A stretch of DNA of 5,183 nt, taken from a virus (Duplodnaviria > Heunggongvirae > Uroviricota > Caudoviricetes). Below are positions 1,465 to 5,095 of the stretch, in pieces. Each line of letters opens with the position of its first letter. Positions within the stretch are counted from its first letter, which is position 1. The DNA lies in the IMG/VR virus record IMGVR_UViG_2667527959_000003, positions 1 to 5,183 of that record; one strand, written 5' to 3'. A program made the position numbers and the translations under genes. Under the pieces are notes generated by a model. It worked only from the letters and a program-made list of their open reading frames with translations. It had not been told where the DNA came from and searched no databases.

Positions 1465-2282
1465 GCACTATTACCAGAGAACTGGCAAAGCTGTTCAGAA
1501 AAATTACGAATTCTGAAATTGATGCGGAGGGTAACGCTCATGTTGTTTTATCTCCTGCTGATAGCCTCCTGATTAATAATGCGCGTATAGCACTGGCATC
1601 GCTCGAAGCAGAGCCTGTGGCGTATATGGTTGGCACGCAACTTCTGGAAAACATGACACAGGCGATTGCGTACAAAGCGGATACAGCCTTGCAAATTAAG
1701 CCGCTTTACACCGCCCCGTCAGCGCCGGTATCTGTTCCTGATTTGAAACCAGTTGGCTTTTTATTCGTGTCCGATGATGGCGCAGTTGCTTATTCTCCTG
1801 CTGGCTGCCCCATGAAAGGATTTAATCTAATCGGTCCGATTTACGGTGATGTGAACGCCTGCCGCGCCGCCATGCTTCAGTCCGATGGTACCCTCACCAA
1901 TGAAGGTACCATGCAGTTGTCCGGTAATTCCGAACAAATCGAACCCGTAAGTAATCGTGATGAGTTGCCGTTGGACTATCTGCAAGGTCACAAAGACGGC
2001 CTTGAATGGGCGGCGCAACTGGCAGAGGCCAATCATCCGCAAACAGGTGACTGGTTATACGACGACCCAATCGATCTTGCCAGGGCGATTCGCAAAGGTC
2101 CGGATATGCCTACTGTTCAGGCTGGCAACTCTCCGGTAACTCCGGATGGTTCAGCTAACATATTGCGGCGCTGGTTAGCATTTGGTCGCGCAATGCAAAG
2201 TTCTGGCAGTCAGTTACCTCGCCACCTGATTGCAGAAACCGAGTCCATGCTCGCAGCAGCACCGCAGCAGGAGGTGAAGTGA
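1461..2282 (+). CDS. Hypothetical protein, 273 aa, largest accessory ORF
   Basis: Long uninterrupted ORF with ATG at 1461 overlapping the upstream stop and GGAG 8 nt upstream. Ends ...AAPQQEVK*, with the last codons forming the SD for the next gene. No Walker, nuclease or other motif recognised. Confidence 0.7.
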   Translation: MSTITRELAKLFRKITNSEIDAEGNAHVVLSPADSLLINNARIALASLEAEPVAYMVGTQLLENMTQAIAYKADTALQIKPLYTAPSAPVSVPDLKPVGFLFVSDDGAVAYSPAGCPMKGFNLIGPIYGDVNACRAAMLQSDGTLTNEGTMQLSGNSEQIEPVSNRDELPLDYLQGHKDGLEWAAQLAEANHPQTGDWLYDDPIDLARAIRKGPDMPTVQAGNSPVTPDGSANILRRWLAFGRAMQSSGSQLPRHLIAETESMLAAAPQQEVK

Positions 2283-2679: not shown

Positions 2680-2963
2680 TGGACTCCTTCGCGAAATATA
2701 CGATCATTGACTGGATAGCATTCCTTCAGGTTTTGCTCATCTGGTTTTATATGGCTTACAGGAGTGGACAGTGGATTGTCAGTGTAGCCTGTAGCAAGGG
2801 ATGGCGTTGGTGGAACCGAAAGAATAAAAAAGCACTGGCATTGGATTCGTTTTACGAAGCATTCAATCTTAACAGTCTTCAGCCTGGTTCTGTCATTGTA
2901 GTCACCACTCAAAGCGGCATGACGATACAAATTCACAAGCCAAAGGAGGAAGGTCGTGGCTAA
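2679..2963 (+). CDS. Small putative membrane protein (94 aa)
   Basis: ATG at 2679 overlaps the upstream stop (TGATG), with AGGAGG at 2666-2671 spaced 7 nt. The ORF track's 2628 start is an in-frame upstream extension. Hydrophobic, Trp-rich stretch IIDWIAFLQVLLIWFYMAY...WIVSVA is consistent with one or two transmembrane helices, followed by a basic patch WRWWNRKNKK. Confidence 0.6.
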   Translation: MDSFAKYTIIDWIAFLQVLLIWFYMAYRSGQWIVSVACSKGWRWWNRKNKKALALDSFYEAFNLNSLQPGSVIVVTTQSGMTIQIHKPKEEGRG

Positions 2964-3237
2964 CCTTCAACTTGCCGTCAAAGGTGAATACTTCGATGCC
3001 ATGATTCGAGGAGAGAAAACGGAAGAGTATCGCCTGTGTAATGACTATTGGAATAAGCGAATTATGTTCCGGGAGTATGACCGCCTGATTATCACAAAGG
3101 GATATCCGAAGCGCGACGACTCCAGTCGCAGAATTGATGTTCCGTATGGAGGATATGAAGTGAAAACAATCACACACCCCCACTTCGGTGATAAACCGGT
3201 AAAGGTATACGCGATAAAGGTGAATATCAATTGCTAA
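2956..3237 (+). CDS. Hypothetical protein, 93 aa, possibly ASCH/PUA-like fold; occupies the position of lambda ea8.5
   Basis: GTG at 2956 with AGGAGG at 2944-2949 spaced 6 nt; overlaps the upstream gene by 8 nt. The motif KGEYFDAMIRGEKTEEYR resembles the N-terminal beta-strand/GxKT.E.R signature of ASCH/DUF3850-type domains, from memory only. Length and position match lambda ea8.5, but I cannot confirm identity. Confidence 0.6.
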   Translation: MANLQLAVKGEYFDAMIRGEKTEEYRLCNDYWNKRIMFREYDRLIITKGYPKRDDSSRRIDVPYGGYEVKTITHPHFGDKPVKVYAIKVNINC

Positions 3238-3261
3238 ATTAGTAGCATAGCATAAAGATGC

Positions 3262-3286
3262 TTGCATTAATGAAGTGTGTATAATA
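3262..3286 (+). promoter_or_regulatory. Putative sigma70-type promoter (perfect -10 TATAAT at 3280-3285, weak -35)
   Basis: TATAAT at 3280-3285 in the AT-rich island upstream of the small ORF at 3350. The nearest TTGCAT (3262-3267) is only 12 nt away, so the -35 is poor. AT-rich DNA throws up such hexamers by chance. Confidence 0.3.
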
Positions 3287-3349
3287 ACGCCTCATCAATA
3301 GTAAACTACTGAAATAGCAAAAAAATGCATATTAAAGAGGATTCGAAAA

Positions 3350-3541
3350 TTGAAAATGTTCATGCAAATAGACAGACGCATAGATATTAATGGCAATTCA
3401 TACTTAGTTAGATGCGAAGAGAGGCCTGACGGTGAGTGGCGTGTATATGATATTGACCGTAAGATCAATATCAGCACCATGAACAAAGACACTGCCTTTG
3501 ATGAATGGAAAGCTGAAGCTAAAAAACAACATAATTCGTAG
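3350..3541 (+). CDS. Hypothetical small protein (about 61-63 aa) in the AT-rich island
   Basis: ORF with TTG at 3350 (ATG at 3356 and 3362 in frame) and GAGG at 3337-3340. Lysine/aspartate-rich product. Sits in strongly AT-rich sequence between a putative promoter and a hairpin terminator. Confidence 0.45.
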   Translation: MKMFMQIDRRIDINGNSYLVRCEERPDGEWRVYDIDRKINISTMNKDTAFDEWKAEAKKQHNS

Positions 3542-3583
3542 AATTACAAAAACCCTAACCAATTGATGGATTTCTTTTATCTG

Positions 3584-3608
3584 AACTCGCTACGGCGAGT
3601 TTTGTTTT
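3584..3608 (+). terminator. Putative rho-independent terminator
   Basis: Inverted repeat AACTCGC (3584-3590), loop TACG, GCGAGTT (3595-3601), then a T-rich tail TTGTTTT. Confidence 0.5.
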
Positions 3609-3621
3609 ATGGAGATGATAA

Positions 3622-3789
3622 ATGCACTTTCGAGTCACAGGTGAATGGAATGGAGAGCCATTCAACAGGGTTATCGAAGCAGAGGACATCAACGACTGCT
3701 ATAACCACTGGATGCTATGGGCGCAGATAGCGCATGCAGACGTAACAAATATTCGAATTGAAGAACTGAAAGAACACCAAACCGCCTGA
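3622..3789 (+). CDS. Hypothetical small acidic protein (55 aa), absent from the supplied ORF track
   Basis: ATG at 3622 with GGAGA at 3611-3615 spaced 6 nt. Open for 55 codons (MHFRVTGEWNGEPFNRVIEAEDINDCYNHWMLWAQIAHADVTNIRIEELKEHQTA), stop TGA at 3787-3789 inside the loop of the following terminator. Confidence 0.45.
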   Translation: MHFRVTGEWNGEPFNRVIEAEDINDCYNHWMLWAQIAHADVTNIRIEELKEHQTA

Positions 3790-3802
3790 TGGCGGTTTTT
3801 TC
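3780..3802 (+). terminator. Rho-independent terminator
   Basis: Stem AACCGCC (3780-3786), loop TGAT, GGCGGTT (3791-3797), followed by a T-run (TTTTTT to 3801) then CTT. Confidence 0.65.
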
Positions 3803-3842
3803 TTGCGTGTAATTGCGGAGACTTTGCGATGTACTTGACACT
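3803..3842 (+). promoter_or_regulatory. pI-like cII-dependent promoter region (TTGC-N6-TTGC box) overlapping the start of xis
   Basis: TTGC at 3803-3806 and TTGC at 3813-3816 separated by 6 nt (GTGTAA), the cII recognition pattern known from lambda pRE and pI. In lambda the pI transcript starts just inside xis, so Int is made without Xis. Confidence 0.6.
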
Positions 3843-4047
3843 TCAGGAGTGGAACGCACGCCAGCGGCGCCCAAGAAGCCTTGAAACAGTTCGTCGATGG
3901 GTACGCGAGTGCAGGATATTCCCTCCTCCGGTTAAGGATGGAAGAGAGTATCTGTTCCACGAATCAGCGGTAAAGGTTGACTTAAATCGACCAGTAACAG
4001 GTAGCCTTTTGAAGAGGATCAGAAATGGGAAGAAGGCGAAGTCATGA
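3829..4047 (+). CDS. xis: Excisionase Xis (72 aa), lambda-type
   Basis: Product MYLTLQEWNARQRRPRSLETVRRWVRECRIFPPPVKDGREYLFHESAVKVDLNRPVTGSLLKRIRNGKKAKS matches lambda Xis as I recall it. GGAG 8 nt upstream. 23-nt overlap with int, as in lambda. Confidence 0.95.
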   Translation: MYLTLQEWNARQRRPRSLETVRRWVRECRIFPPPVKDGREYLFHESAVKVDLNRPVTGSLLKRIRNGKKAKS

Positions 4048-5095
4048 GCGCCGGGATTTACCCCCTAACCTTTATATAAGAAACAATGGATATTACTGCT
4101 ACAGGGACCCAAGGACGGGTAAAGAGTTCGGATTAGGCAGAGACAGGAGGATAGCAATTACTGAAGCAATACAGGCAAACATTGAGTTATTTTCAGGACA
4201 CAAACACAAGCCTCTGACAGCAAGAATCAACAGTGATAATTCTGTTACGTTACATTCATGGCTTGATCGCTACGAAAAAATCCTCGCCAGCAGAGGAATC
4301 AAGCAGAAGACACTCATAAATTACATGAGCAAAATTAAAGCAATAAGGAGGGGTCTGCCTGATGCTCCACTTGAAAACATCACCACAAAAGAAATTGCGG
4401 CAATGCTCAATGGATACATAGACGAGGGCAAAGCGGCGTCAGCCAAGTTAATCAGATCAACACTGAGCGATGCATTCCGAGAGGCAATAGCTGAAGGCCA
4501 TATAACAACAAACCCGGTCTCTGCCACTCGCGCAGCAAAATCAGAGGTAAGGAGATCAAGGCTTACGGCTGACGAATACCTGAAAATTTATCAAGCAGCA
4601 GAATCATCACCATGTTGGCTAAGACTTGCAATGGAACTGGCTGTTGTTACCGGGCAGCGAGTTGGTGATTTATGCGAAATGAAGTGGTCTGATATCGTAG
4701 ATGGATATCTTTATGTCGAGCAAAGCAAAACAGGCGTAAAAATTGCCATCCCAACAGCATTGCATGTTGATGCTCTCGGAATATCAATGAAGGAAACACT
4801 TGATAAATGCAAAGAGATTCTTGGCGGAGAAACCATAATTGCATCTACTCGTCGCGAACCGCTTTCATCCGGCACAGTATCAAGGTATTTTATGCGCGCA
4901 CGAAAAGCATCAGGTCTTTCCTTCGAAGGGGATCCGCCTACCTTTCACGAGTTGCGCAGTTTGTCTGCAAGACTCTATGAGAAGCAGATAAGCGATAAGT
5001 TTGCTCAACATCTTCTCGGGCATAAGTCGGACACCATGGCATCACAGTATCGTGATGACAGAGGCAGGGAGTGGGACAAAATTGAAATCAAATAA
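4025..5095 (+). CDS. int: Integrase Int (356 aa), lambda-type tyrosine recombinase
   Basis: Begins MGRRRSHERRDLPPNLYIRNNGYYCYRDPRTGKEFGLGRDRR and ends REWDKIEIK, as lambda Int does. Catalytic signature in place: R in TGQRVGDL, H..R in HELRSLSARLY, H and Y in LLGHKSDTMASQY. AGAGGA at 4013-4018 spaced 6 nt. Confidence 0.97.
   Translation: MGRRRSHERRDLPPNLYIRNNGYYCYRDPRTGKEFGLGRDRRIAITEAIQANIELFSGHKHKPLTARINSDNSVTLHSWLDRYEKILASRGIKQKTLINYMSKIKAIRRGLPDAPLENITTKEIAAMLNGYIDEGKAASAKLIRSTLSDAFREAIAEGHITTNPVSATRAAKSEVRRSRLTADEYLKIYQAAESSPCWLRLAMELAVVTGQRVGDLCEMKWSDIVDGYLYVEQSKTGVKIAIPTALHVDALGISMKETLDKCKEILGGETIIASTRREPLSSGTVSRYFMRARKASGLSFEGDPPTFHELRSLSARLYEKQISDKFAQHLLGHKSDTMASQYRDDRGREWDKIEIK

What the first reader, a model, noticed from the sequence alone, without database searches (positions are those of the whole stretch)
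3238..3620. AT-rich moron-like island between the accessory operon and the integration module
Base composition shifts abruptly to strongly AT-rich immediately after the stop at 3237. The island holds a perfect TATAAT (3280-3285), one small ORF (3350-3541) and a hairpin with T-tail (3584-3608). A promoter-gene-terminator unit of foreign composition inside a phage operon is the classic moron signature, and such elements often encode lysogenic-conversion, exclusion or anti-defence functions expressed from the prophage. In lambda the ea8.5-to-xis gap is about 295 bp as I recall, against 591 bp here, which would fit an insertion, but I cannot verify that number.
Basis: partly seen in the sequence, partly recalled or inferred. 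Interest (0 to 1): 0.55.

Follow-up and report, generated by a model that had tools for sequence, protein, structure and literature searches.

The report
Rare small gene inserted before xis
The AT-rich patch is a real but rare ~340-base insertion in a lambda-like phage; it carries a genuine 63-residue protein gene of unknown function that standard annotation misses, but its "promoter" is no better than chance and its "terminator" is ordinary lambda backbone.

Summary
The window is the far end of a lambdoid early-left (exo-xis) operon: ea genes, an ASCH gene, the island, lambda orf55, xis, int, attP.

The island is real. At 33.9% GC against 48.2±3.3% it is the lowest-GC stretch in the window. 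Relative to 933W, lambda and mEp213 it is an insertion spanning about 3229-3567. It occurs in 1 of 50,697 phage records and 27-30 of 5,426 E. coli genomes, always just after the same ASCH allele.

ORF 3350-3541 is a true gene (phrog_16329). Homologues at 35-66% identity show saturated synonymous change (pS ~0.8) against pN 0.20-0.39. PGAP annotates it in none of the 30 matching genomes.

- **Terminator:** the hairpin at 3583-3608 is not part of the insert. It is lambda's own predicted terminator t4, present in phages that lack the island.
- **Promoter:** TATAAT has no -35, occurs at chance frequency, and reads AATAAT in a second allele class.
- **Family pattern:** every divergent family member is followed by a terminator 16-41 nt after its stop. 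One lineage conserves a -10-like block in an otherwise divergent spacer.
- **Function:** unknown. The AlphaFold2 model is a generic four-strand-plus-helix fold with no diagnostic match.

Verdict: a moron-type accessory gene insertion, ordinary in kind. Autonomous expression from the prophage is unproven.

The parts
2956..3237 (+). ASCH-domain gene (93 aa), the constant left neighbour of the island. Its last 3 codons (3229-3237) already belong to the island-specific sequence.
   Evidence: PGAP names the identical product an ASCH domain-containing protein, WP_000002117.1. It matches phrog_625 at E 4e-50; the Pfam ASCH match is weak. In most related loci, homology to the window begins at 2955.
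3229..3567 (+). The inserted AT-rich island proper, 339 bp at 33.9% GC. It takes the place of about 31 nt that in 933W (and the matching stretch in lambda) hold the gene end and the first of two tandem terminator hairpins (lambda t3).
   Evidence: Alignments with 933W, mEp213 and lambda define both junctions. In a second context, upstream of dinI, homology ends at 3558.
3238..3349 (+). 112-nt untranslated spacer at 29.5% GC. It is a possible 5' UTR and promoter region.
   Evidence: GC. It diverges 7.1% between the two allele classes, against 2.1% for the ORF.
3280..3285 (+). TATAAT, a candidate -10 hexamer without a matching -35.
   Evidence: 2 found, 2.19 expected. It reads AATAAT in the class-2 copies, L033-L041.
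3320..3326 (+). A-run of variable length (6-8 A). It is the only site of indels among close copies.
3337..3342 (+). Shine-Dalgarno-like AGAGGA, 7 nt before the TTG start.
   Evidence: Read directly from the sequence.
3350..3541 (+). Real protein-coding gene of 63 aa, in the uncharacterised family phrog_16329. The predicted fold is four beta strands plus a C-terminal helix.
   Evidence: - Family match: phrog_16329 at E 5.8e-48, full length.
- Homologues: HK639 gp31 core, P0015, P0008, P0016 and P0009 at 35-66% identity, each with a valid start codon at the aligned position.
- Coding signal: differences by codon position are 14/12/33. pN is 0.20-0.39 against pS of about 0.8.
- Integrity: intact in all 29 lambda-type IMG/VR copies.
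- Structure: AlphaFold2 mean pLDDT 89.3.
3568..3620 (+). Conserved lambdoid junction segment that is not part of the insert. It holds the terminator hairpin 3583-3602 with its T-tail to 3608 (lambda predicted t4) and the ribosome-binding site of orf55.
   Evidence: 178 phage records match it at 95-100% identity. Hairpin. The same sequence is listed as t4-lambda in PMC4195576, Table 4.
3622..3789 (+). Homologue of lambda orf55 (lambdap35), 55 aa, function unknown.
   Evidence: Alignment with lambda. Matches phrog_676 at E 3e-39.
3779..3798 (+). Second intrinsic terminator (lambda predicted t5), just upstream of the CII-site/pI region and xis.
   Evidence: Listed as t5-lambda in PMC4195576. The equivalent site in phage 434 is annotated as a terminator.

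Best explanation
The island is a horizontally acquired accessory-gene insertion in the exo-xis (early-left) region of a lambda-like prophage.

**What happened.** About 340 bp of low-GC DNA (3229-3567) replaced the short stretch that in lambda and 933W ends the preceding gene and holds the first of two tandem terminator hairpins.

**What it carries.** The insert holds a 112-nt untranslated spacer and one real gene (3350-3541). The gene encodes a 63-residue soluble protein with four beta strands packed against a C-terminal helix. It belongs to a tiny, enterobacterial-phage-restricted family (phrog_16329).

**How it is probably expressed (inferred).**
- The gene points the same way as the operon. 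I therefore infer that it is transcribed with the other early-left genes by antiterminated polymerase, on infection or induction.
- Any polymerase that is not antiterminated, including one starting at the weak candidate promoter in the spacer, would stop at the resident lambda-type terminator 41 nt downstream.
- That would keep xis and int insulated.

**What the protein probably does (inferred, low confidence).** From its size, fold and position among early accessory genes, it most likely acts by binding and modulating a host or phage protein. It is unlikely to be an enzyme.

**Shown versus inferred.**
- Shown: the insertion boundaries, the composition, the coding status, the family distribution and the backbone origin of the terminator.
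- Inferred: the route of transcription and the mode of action.
For: - **Context.** xis, int and attP are 98% identical to lambda and 434.
- **Boundaries.** Both junctions are defined against 933W, mEp213 and lambda.
- **Composition.** GC is 33.9% against 48.2±3.3%.
- **Rarity.** The island is in 1 of 50,697 phage records and 27-30 of 5,426 E. coli genomes. The ASCH gene without it is in 186 phage records.
- **Coding status.** Codon-position differences are 14/12/33. pN is 0.20-0.39 against pS of about 0.8 in all six pairs of four divergent members. The ORF is 2.1% divergent against 7.1% for the spacer between allele classes. Indels fall only in the upstream A-run. All 29 IMG/VR copies are intact.
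- **Start codon.** The aligned start position is TTG, ATG, ATG or GTG in four lineages.
- **Family size.** Only 13 clusters in 5.8 billion proteins.
- **Same slot elsewhere.** The HK639/L048 lineage has the gene in the same position just before the excision-integration module.
- **Terminators.** Every lineage has a terminator 16-41 nt after the stop.
- **Backbone terminator.** The hairpin is shared with lambda and listed as predicted t4-lambda in PMC4195576.
Against: - No expression data of any kind were available.
- The window does not contain pL, N or nutL, so antiterminated read-through rests on analogy with lambda.
- The long AT-rich spacer is unusual for this tightly packed operon. The constant gene-then-terminator layout also fits an autonomous unit equally well.
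Confidence: 0.7

Rival explanations
1. Classic moron. The spacer holds a working sigma-70 promoter around TATAAT 3280-3285. The gene is transcribed on its own from the repressed prophage and terminated at 3583-3608. Its product changes the lysogen, for example by exclusion, anti-defence or conversion.
For: - **Window:** a perfect -10 hexamer sits in a 112-nt, 29.5% GC untranslated spacer, in an operon whose other genes abut or overlap.
- **Other lineages:** three more (HK639, L048, L046) also have spacers of roughly 100-125 nt upstream.
- **Conserved -10-like block:** the HK639 and L048 spacers are only 42% identical, yet both keep a G-ATAATAT--GATG block 42-43 nt before the start.
- **HK639:** scores a 9-of-12 promoter, TTGCCG-17-AATAAT.
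- **Terminators:** every family member is followed by one, as a prophage-expressed unit placed in front of xis and int would need.
- **Class-2 allele:** AATAAT keeps the critical A at position 2 and T at position 6 of the hexamer.
Against: - There is no -35, and no TG at the extended -10 position. The promoter scan does not call it.
- TATAAT occurs at chance frequency.
- The first base of the hexamer is not conserved between allele classes.
- L046 has no promoter-like site.
- L045 and L047 have no spacer at all, and their start codon overlaps the upstream stop.
- The terminator was not brought in by the insert.
- The class-2 copies have no terminator between the gene and dinI.
- AT-rich DNA commonly contains promoter-like hexamers.
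Confidence: 0.3
2. The ASCH gene and the 63-aa gene form one two-gene functional cassette (2955-3558) that moves and works as a unit. The small protein would modulate the ASCH protein, or the reverse.
For: - All 29 IMG/VR copies, the three E. coli loci inspected and the one phage record carry the same ASCH C-terminus directly upstream.
- In most loci, homology to the window starts exactly at 2955.
- This ASCH allele is distinct from the common one. It is about 93% identical to 933W, and no phage record reaches 99%.
Against: - Members of the family in the HK639, L048, L045, L047 and L046 loci have unrelated upstream neighbours with no ASCH match.
- L033 keeps the small gene with only the last 44 bp of the ASCH gene.
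- ASCH genes occur without the island in 186 phage records.
- The linkage may only reflect how recently and rarely the insertion happened.
Confidence: 0.12
3. The island is non-coding filler or a decaying remnant. The ORF would be a chance reading frame, which would explain why PGAP never annotates it.
For: - PGAP annotates nothing under the match in all 30 E. coli genomes.
- Pfam and NCBIfam give no match.
- Truncated or frame-shifted variants exist: P0003 to P0007, and the Salmonella fragments whose homology begins at 3425.
Against: - There is strong purifying selection across four lineages.
- The match to phrog_16329 is full-length.
- The start and stop positions are conserved.
- The fold prediction is confident from only 5 sequences.
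- The ORF is more conserved than both of its flanks.
Confidence: 0.03

Closest known systems
Morons of lambdoid phages (Hendrix and Juhala concept; from my own knowledge, not checked here)
   Same: It is extra DNA between sequences that are adjacent in sister phages, with markedly lower GC. It holds a single small gene co-oriented with the host operon, and a terminator lies downstream.
   Different: The terminator is resident backbone rather than part of the insert. Promoter evidence is weak. Expression in the lysogen is untested.
Lambda exo-xis region genes (ea8.5, ea22, orf61, orf63, orf60a, orf73; Wegrzyn laboratory papers, e.g. PMC4195576)
   Same: It has the same genomic compartment and orientation. 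It is likewise a small, poorly characterised early gene thought to be transcribed from pL, and it sits next to the same predicted terminators t4 and t5.
   Different: It has no sequence relationship to any lambda gene: tblastn of the 63-aa protein hit only Stx2_16002 and HK639. In particular it is not lambda orf63, despite the equal length. The island is absent from lambda and from 933W.
HK639 gp31 (YP_004934061) and phrog_16329
   Same: It is a true homologue at 65.6% identity. It occupies the same slot as the last gene before a terminator and the integration module, and it is also low in GC (35-39% against about 53-58% around it).
   Different: HK639 gp31 is annotated as 88 aa from an upstream ATG. 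The conserved core is 62 aa, starting at the position aligned with window 3350. Its flanking genes, spacer and terminator sequence are all different.
Small beta-sheet-plus-helix binding proteins (MmoD, TriX immunity protein, HicB N-terminal domain, AP2-type domains)
   Different: Identity is 8-12% with no sequence-level relationship. There is no partner toxin gene nearby. The fold is too common to imply a function.

Membership tests
Moron (extra transcription unit in a phage genome) | Extra DNA lying between sequences that are adjacent in related phages | tested here: met
   In 933W, mEp213 and lambda the preceding gene's end runs almost directly into the segment that matches window 3568-3620. 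The 339 bp at 3229-3567 are absent from all three.
Moron (extra transcription unit in a phage genome) | Base composition different from the surrounding genome | tested here: met
   33.9% GC against 48.2±3.3%, the lowest of any 339-bp window.
Moron (extra transcription unit in a phage genome) | Own promoter upstream of the gene | tested here: inconclusive
   - **Against:** TATAAT has no -35 and is not called by the scan. It occurs at chance frequency. It reads AATAAT in class 2.
- **For:** a -10-like block is conserved in the HK639/L048 lineage.
Moron (extra transcription unit in a phage genome) | Own terminator carried with the insert | tested here: not met
   The hairpin at 3583-3608 lies outside the insert and is present in lambda, 933W, 434 and mEp213. 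A functional terminator still follows the gene.
Moron (extra transcription unit in a phage genome) | Expressed from the repressed prophage | not testable with these tools
   No transcriptome data were available for any carrier strain.
phrog_16329 (uncharacterised phage protein family) | Full-length significant match to the family profile | tested here: met
   E 5.8e-48, residues 1-63 on profile positions 1-63 of 63.
Lambda orf63 and other lambda exo-xis proteins | Sequence homology to a lambda-encoded protein | tested here: not met
   tblastn against 50,697 phage records at E ≤ 1 returned only Stx2_16002 and HK639.
HicB-like antitoxin | HicB fold together with an adjacent HicA toxin gene | tested here: not met
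CVNH (cyanovirin-N homology) domain | Match to the Pfam CVNH profile | tested here: not met
   The only link is a repeat-inflated phmmer hit to a multi-CVNH protein, E 6e-6 over 5 stretches. The 63-aa protein itself has no Pfam hit at E ≤ 1.
Known anti-phage defence components (PADLOC) | Match to a PADLOC profile | tested here: not met
   No hit at E ≤ 1 for this protein, its two distant homologues, the ASCH protein or orf55.

The most novel reading that the evidence does not exclude
The 63-aa protein founds a new family of prophage-expressed small effectors. In this reading it is transcribed from its own weak promoter in the lysogen and deliberately insulated from xis and int by the terminator that always follows it. 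It would either act on superinfecting phages or host defence, or modulate excision itself. That second option is suggested by its recurrent placement just before the xis-int module in two lambdoid lineages, and by a sheet-plus-helix fold of the type seen in AP2 and arm-binding DNA-binding domains.
Probability: 0.15. Interest if true: 0.55.

Novelty: new member of a known kind. Interest (0 to 1): 0.3.

Why it matters
- **Annotation.** It adds a genuine, selection-constrained small gene to lambdoid prophages. NCBI's pipeline leaves it unannotated in every complete E. coli genome that carries it.
- **Mosaic evolution.** It shows where new genes enter these phages: at a conserved terminator-containing junction upstream of orf55, xis and int.
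- **Candidate for testing.** The exo-xis region is known to influence the lysis-lysogeny decision and Shiga-toxin prophage induction, and one carrier is an Stx2a phage. An extra gene there is therefore a reasonable candidate for a regulatory, exclusion or anti-defence role.
- **Limits.** Nothing here points to a new principle. The finding is a typical accessory-gene insertion.

Tried and rejected
- **Rfam.** A scan of the whole window at E ≤ 1 gave only two chance-level hits elsewhere, so there is no known RNA family in the island.
- **Protein family libraries.** Pfam, NCBIfam and PADLOC gave nothing for the 63-aa protein. A profile search of PDB sequences gave nothing better than E 1.4.
- **Exhaustive phmmer against 1.84 billion representatives.** It found only two more small homologues, plus three large repeat proteins (LTD, CVNH and Cep120-type). 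I rejected those three as repeat-inflated chance matches.
- **GTDB species-representative genomes.** The scan for relatives found none.
- **Literature.** A search for HK639 turned up nothing on gp31.
- **Minus-strand ORF 3295-3492.** I considered it and rejected it, because the plus-strand frame carries the conservation and the third-position bias.
- **TTGCAT (3262-3267) as a -35.** I considered it and rejected it. By my count the spacing to TATAAT is 12 nt, which is too short.

Full report
**1. What the window is**

On the plus strand the window reads in the direction of lambda's leftward early transcription.
- A run of ea-type genes comes first. These include ead/Ea22-like genes and a DUF4752 gene.
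- Next are a 93-aa ASCH-domain gene (2956-3237), the AT-rich stretch, and a 55-aa ORF (3622-3789).
- Then come xis (3829-4047), int (4025-5095) and the attP core at the very end.
- From 3568 onwards the DNA is 97-98% identical to phages 434, HK630 and lambda-type records.
- The 55-aa ORF is lambda's lambdap35, also called orf55.

The finding therefore sits at the far end of the exo-xis region, one gene upstream of xis.

**2. Checking the observation**

The composition shift is real and is the strongest in the window.
- GC is 34.7% for 3238-3620 and 33.9% for 3229-3567.
- All non-overlapping 339-bp windows average 48.2% (sd 3.3), with a minimum of 40.7%.

- TATAAT is at 3280-3285, the ORF at 3350-3541, and the hairpin with its T-tail at 3583-3608.
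The ea8.5-to-xis gap is 295 bp in NC_001416, against 591 bp here.
- In both phages that gap also contains orf55. The like-for-like comparison is 88 bp (ea8.5 stop to orf55 start) against 384 bp.

- **The promoter.** TATAAT occurs twice in the window, with 2.19 expected from shuffles. No -35 lies at 16-18 nt, and the best match I counted by eye is 2 of 6. The TG sits one base off the extended -10 position. The promoter scan does not report the site.
- **The hairpin.** It is a good intrinsic terminator, but it is not part of the foreign DNA (section 3).

**3. Boundaries of the insert**

I aligned the window with 933W, mEp213 and lambda.
- 933W carries a 93%-identical ASCH gene. It matches the window up to 3228, three codons before the stop.
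- 933W then has about 31 nt (GGCAATGAATAACAATCCTCGCACTCGCGGG). It rejoins the window at GGATTTCTTTTATCTGAACTCGCTACGGCGAGTTTTGTTTTATGGAGATGAT, which is window 3568-3620.
- Lambda and mEp213 have different upstream genes, but they share this junction segment and the hairpin CCTCGCACTCGCGGGG plus T-run in front of it.
- So the insert is 3229-3567. It displaced the first of two tandem hairpins.

The junction segment is backbone.
- It is found at 95-100% identity in 178 phage records.
- In 933W it precedes a different downstream gene.
- Bloch et al. 2014 (PMC4195576, Table 4) list exactly these lambda sequences as predicted terminators t3, t4 and t5.
- The window's 3583-3608 is t4, its 3779-3798 is t5, and t3 is what the island replaced.

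**4. Distribution and linkage**

- **How rare it is.** The island proper (3238-3567) occurs in only one of 50,697 phage records, Stx2a phage Stx2_16002 at 99% identity. It is in 27-30 of 5,426 complete E. coli genomes, once or twice per genome and always chromosomal. IMG/VR holds 29 further lambda-type copies.
- **How the copies differ.** Among the five close copies I aligned, the only length differences lie in the A-run at 3320-3326.
- **What it travels with.** Every inspected copy directly follows the same ASCH allele. In most loci, homology to the window starts at 2955, the ASCH start.
- **A second allele class.** L033-L041 are 94-95% identical to the window. There the right-hand homology ends at 3558, and the cassette lies about 250 nt upstream of dinI and nin-type genes instead of orf55-xis-int. 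I read a CTGT-N8-ACAG LexA-box-like motif ahead of that dinI by eye in the sequence.
- **Partial copies.** In L033 only the last 44 bp of the ASCH gene remain. Salmonella contigs L006-L008 carry only the 3' two-thirds of the ORF, from 3425.
- **What this means.** The ASCH link is strong but not absolute, and the small gene has its own recombination history.

**5. The ORF is a real gene**

- **Family match.** It matches phrog_16329 over its full length at E 5.8e-48.
- **Family size.** Across 5.8 billion proteins the family has only 13 clusters. An exhaustive HMMER pass over 1.84 billion representatives added just two distant small members.
- **Four lineages can be told apart.**
  - A: the window type.
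  - B: HK639 gp31, with P0013, P0014 and P0015, at 65-67% identity.
  - C: P0008 and P0016, at 48-51%.
  - D: P0009, at 35%.
- **Substitution pattern.** The window and HK639 differ at codon positions 1/2/3 by 14/12/33. In all six pairs of four divergent members, the proportion of synonymous differences is saturated (0.76-0.99). The non-synonymous proportion is only 0.20-0.39.
- **Conservation against flanks.** Between the two allele classes of lineage A, the ORF differs by 2.1%, the spacer by 7.1% and the ASCH gene by 6.4%.
- **Start codon.** The aligned position is a valid start in all lineages: TTG, ATG, ATG and GTG. AGAGGA lies 7 nt upstream of it here. I therefore take 3350 as the start.
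- **Annotation gap.** PGAP lists no feature under the match in any of the 30 E. coli genomes. I checked three loci directly. This is an annotation gap, not evidence against the gene.
- **Name clash.** Despite the equal length, the protein is unrelated to lambda orf63. A tblastn search of all phage records at E ≤ 1 hit only Stx2_16002 and HK639.

**6. Is it an autonomous transcription unit?**

Evidence for:
- The gene is preceded here by 112 nt of 29.5% GC untranslated DNA, in an operon whose other genes abut or overlap.
- Lineages B and D also have spacers of roughly 100-125 nt.
- The HK639 and L048 spacers are only 42% identical. Both keep a G-ATAATAT--GATG block 42-43 nt before the start. 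HK639 also scores TTGCCG-17-AATAAT.
- Every lineage has an intrinsic terminator 16-41 nt after the stop, each with a different sequence. A unit expressed in a lysogen directly upstream of xis and int would need exactly that.

Evidence against:
- The weakness of the -10 evidence set out in section 2.
- TATAAT reads AATAAT in class 2.
- L046 has no promoter-like site.
- In lineage C the gene has no spacer, and its start overlaps the stop of a DNA polymerase III theta-like gene.
- Class 2 has no terminator before dinI.
- In the window the terminator is resident backbone, and lambda has it without this gene.

I rate an independent promoter at about 0.3. The default follows from the orientation and from established lambda biology: transcription with the early-left operon by antiterminated polymerase. 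PMC4195576 describes the exo-xis region as believed to be transcribed from pL. This step is an inference, because the window does not include pL, N or nutL.

**7. What the protein might do**

- **Model.** AlphaFold2 was run on a five-sequence alignment and gave a confident model (mean pLDDT 89.3). It has strands at 6-13, 16-24, 30-34 and 40-43, and a helix at 46-61.
- **Invariant residues.** These include F4, Q6, I7, D8, R9, G15, V20, R21, E24, P26, G28, W30, D34, F50, W53 and A57.
- **Charge.** By my count from the sequence, the protein has 12 acidic and 12 basic residues, so it is near neutral.
- **Other searches.** Foldseek found nothing at E ≤ 0.001 in PDB or BFVD. Pfam, NCBIfam and PADLOC are silent.
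- **My inference.** It is a small protein-binding modulator, as is typical of early accessory genes. This is a prior, not a result.

**8. Comparison with what is known, and verdict**

- **Kind.** It is a moron-type accessory insertion in the lambdoid exo-xis region.
- **Moron criteria.** It meets two: extra DNA between neighbours, and deviant composition. It does not carry its own terminator. Promoter and lysogen expression remain undecided.
- **Family.** The gene is a member of the already catalogued but uncharacterised phrog_16329, with HK639 gp31 as its only annotated phage relative.
- **Novelty.** This is a new member of a known kind.
- **Interest.** It is modest. The points of note are the rarity, the annotation gap, the constant gene-terminator layout, and the position next to xis and int in a region that influences prophage induction.

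Noticed in passing
window 2268-2280, 2453-2465, 2665-2677: The 13-mer CAGGAGGTGAAGT occurs exactly three times, with 0 expected by chance. Each copy spans the stop-start junction of consecutive small ea-type genes, so three successive proteins end in ..QQEVK or ..AQEVK. It looks like a reused junction or linker sequence. It would supply the next gene's ribosome-binding site and could serve as a recombination joint for swapping modules.
   Followed up: partly
window 3568-3620: This 53-bp junction segment holds terminator t4 and the ribosome-binding site. It is 95-100% identical in 178 phage records. The gene upstream of it differs between phages (ea8.5, ASCH and others), and in 933W the gene downstream differs too (L0063 instead of orf55). 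It behaves as a conserved boundary at which modules are exchanged.
   Followed up: partly
window 3229-3234 and 3560-3565: The palindromic hexamer CAATTG sits at both ends of the inserted island. It could be chance or a trace of the joining event. The class-2 copies diverge at 3558, so they lack the right-hand copy.
   Followed up: no
window 3350-3541; E. coli loci L003, L004, L005: NCBI's PGAP annotates no gene for the 63-aa ORF in any of the 30 complete E. coli genomes that carry it, although the ORF is under clear purifying selection.
   Followed up: yes
window 3428: The window's copy has Asp27 (GAC). Every other copy examined has Asn27 (AAC), including the IMG/VR copies, the three aligned E. 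coli loci and Stx2_16002. HK639 also has Asn here, while the more distant homologues have Ser or Gly. This is a substitution private to the window copy among the close relatives.
   Followed up: partly
window 3359-3375; L045 5010-5027; L046 5010-5027; L047 4010-4027: The first codons after the start, TTC ATG CAA ATA GAC AG, are identical at the nucleotide level in lineages that share only 35-50% protein identity. This includes the rare ATA codon. It may hint at a constraint on the mRNA 5' end as well as on the FMQIDR peptide.
   Followed up: no
L033-L041 (IMG/VR), e.g. L033 3712-4700: In the second allele class, the ASCH plus small-gene cassette lies co-oriented with, and about 250 nt upstream of, dinI followed by NinB/NinG-type genes. 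I read a CTGT-N8-ACAG LexA-box-like motif ahead of dinI by eye. An early-left-type block is thus joined to a nin-type block, which is an unusual arrangement for a lambdoid genome.
   Followed up: no
window 3803-3816: TTGCGTGTAATTGC fits the CII-binding consensus TTGC-N6-TTGC at the pI promoter position, just after terminator t5 and before the xis start. The equivalent site is annotated this way in phage 434.
   Followed up: partly
L045 4759-5183 and L047 3765-4189: In one lineage, the homologue of the 63-aa gene overlaps by 4 nt the end of a DNA polymerase III theta-like (HOT-type) gene. This conserved gene pair has unknown meaning.
   Followed up: no
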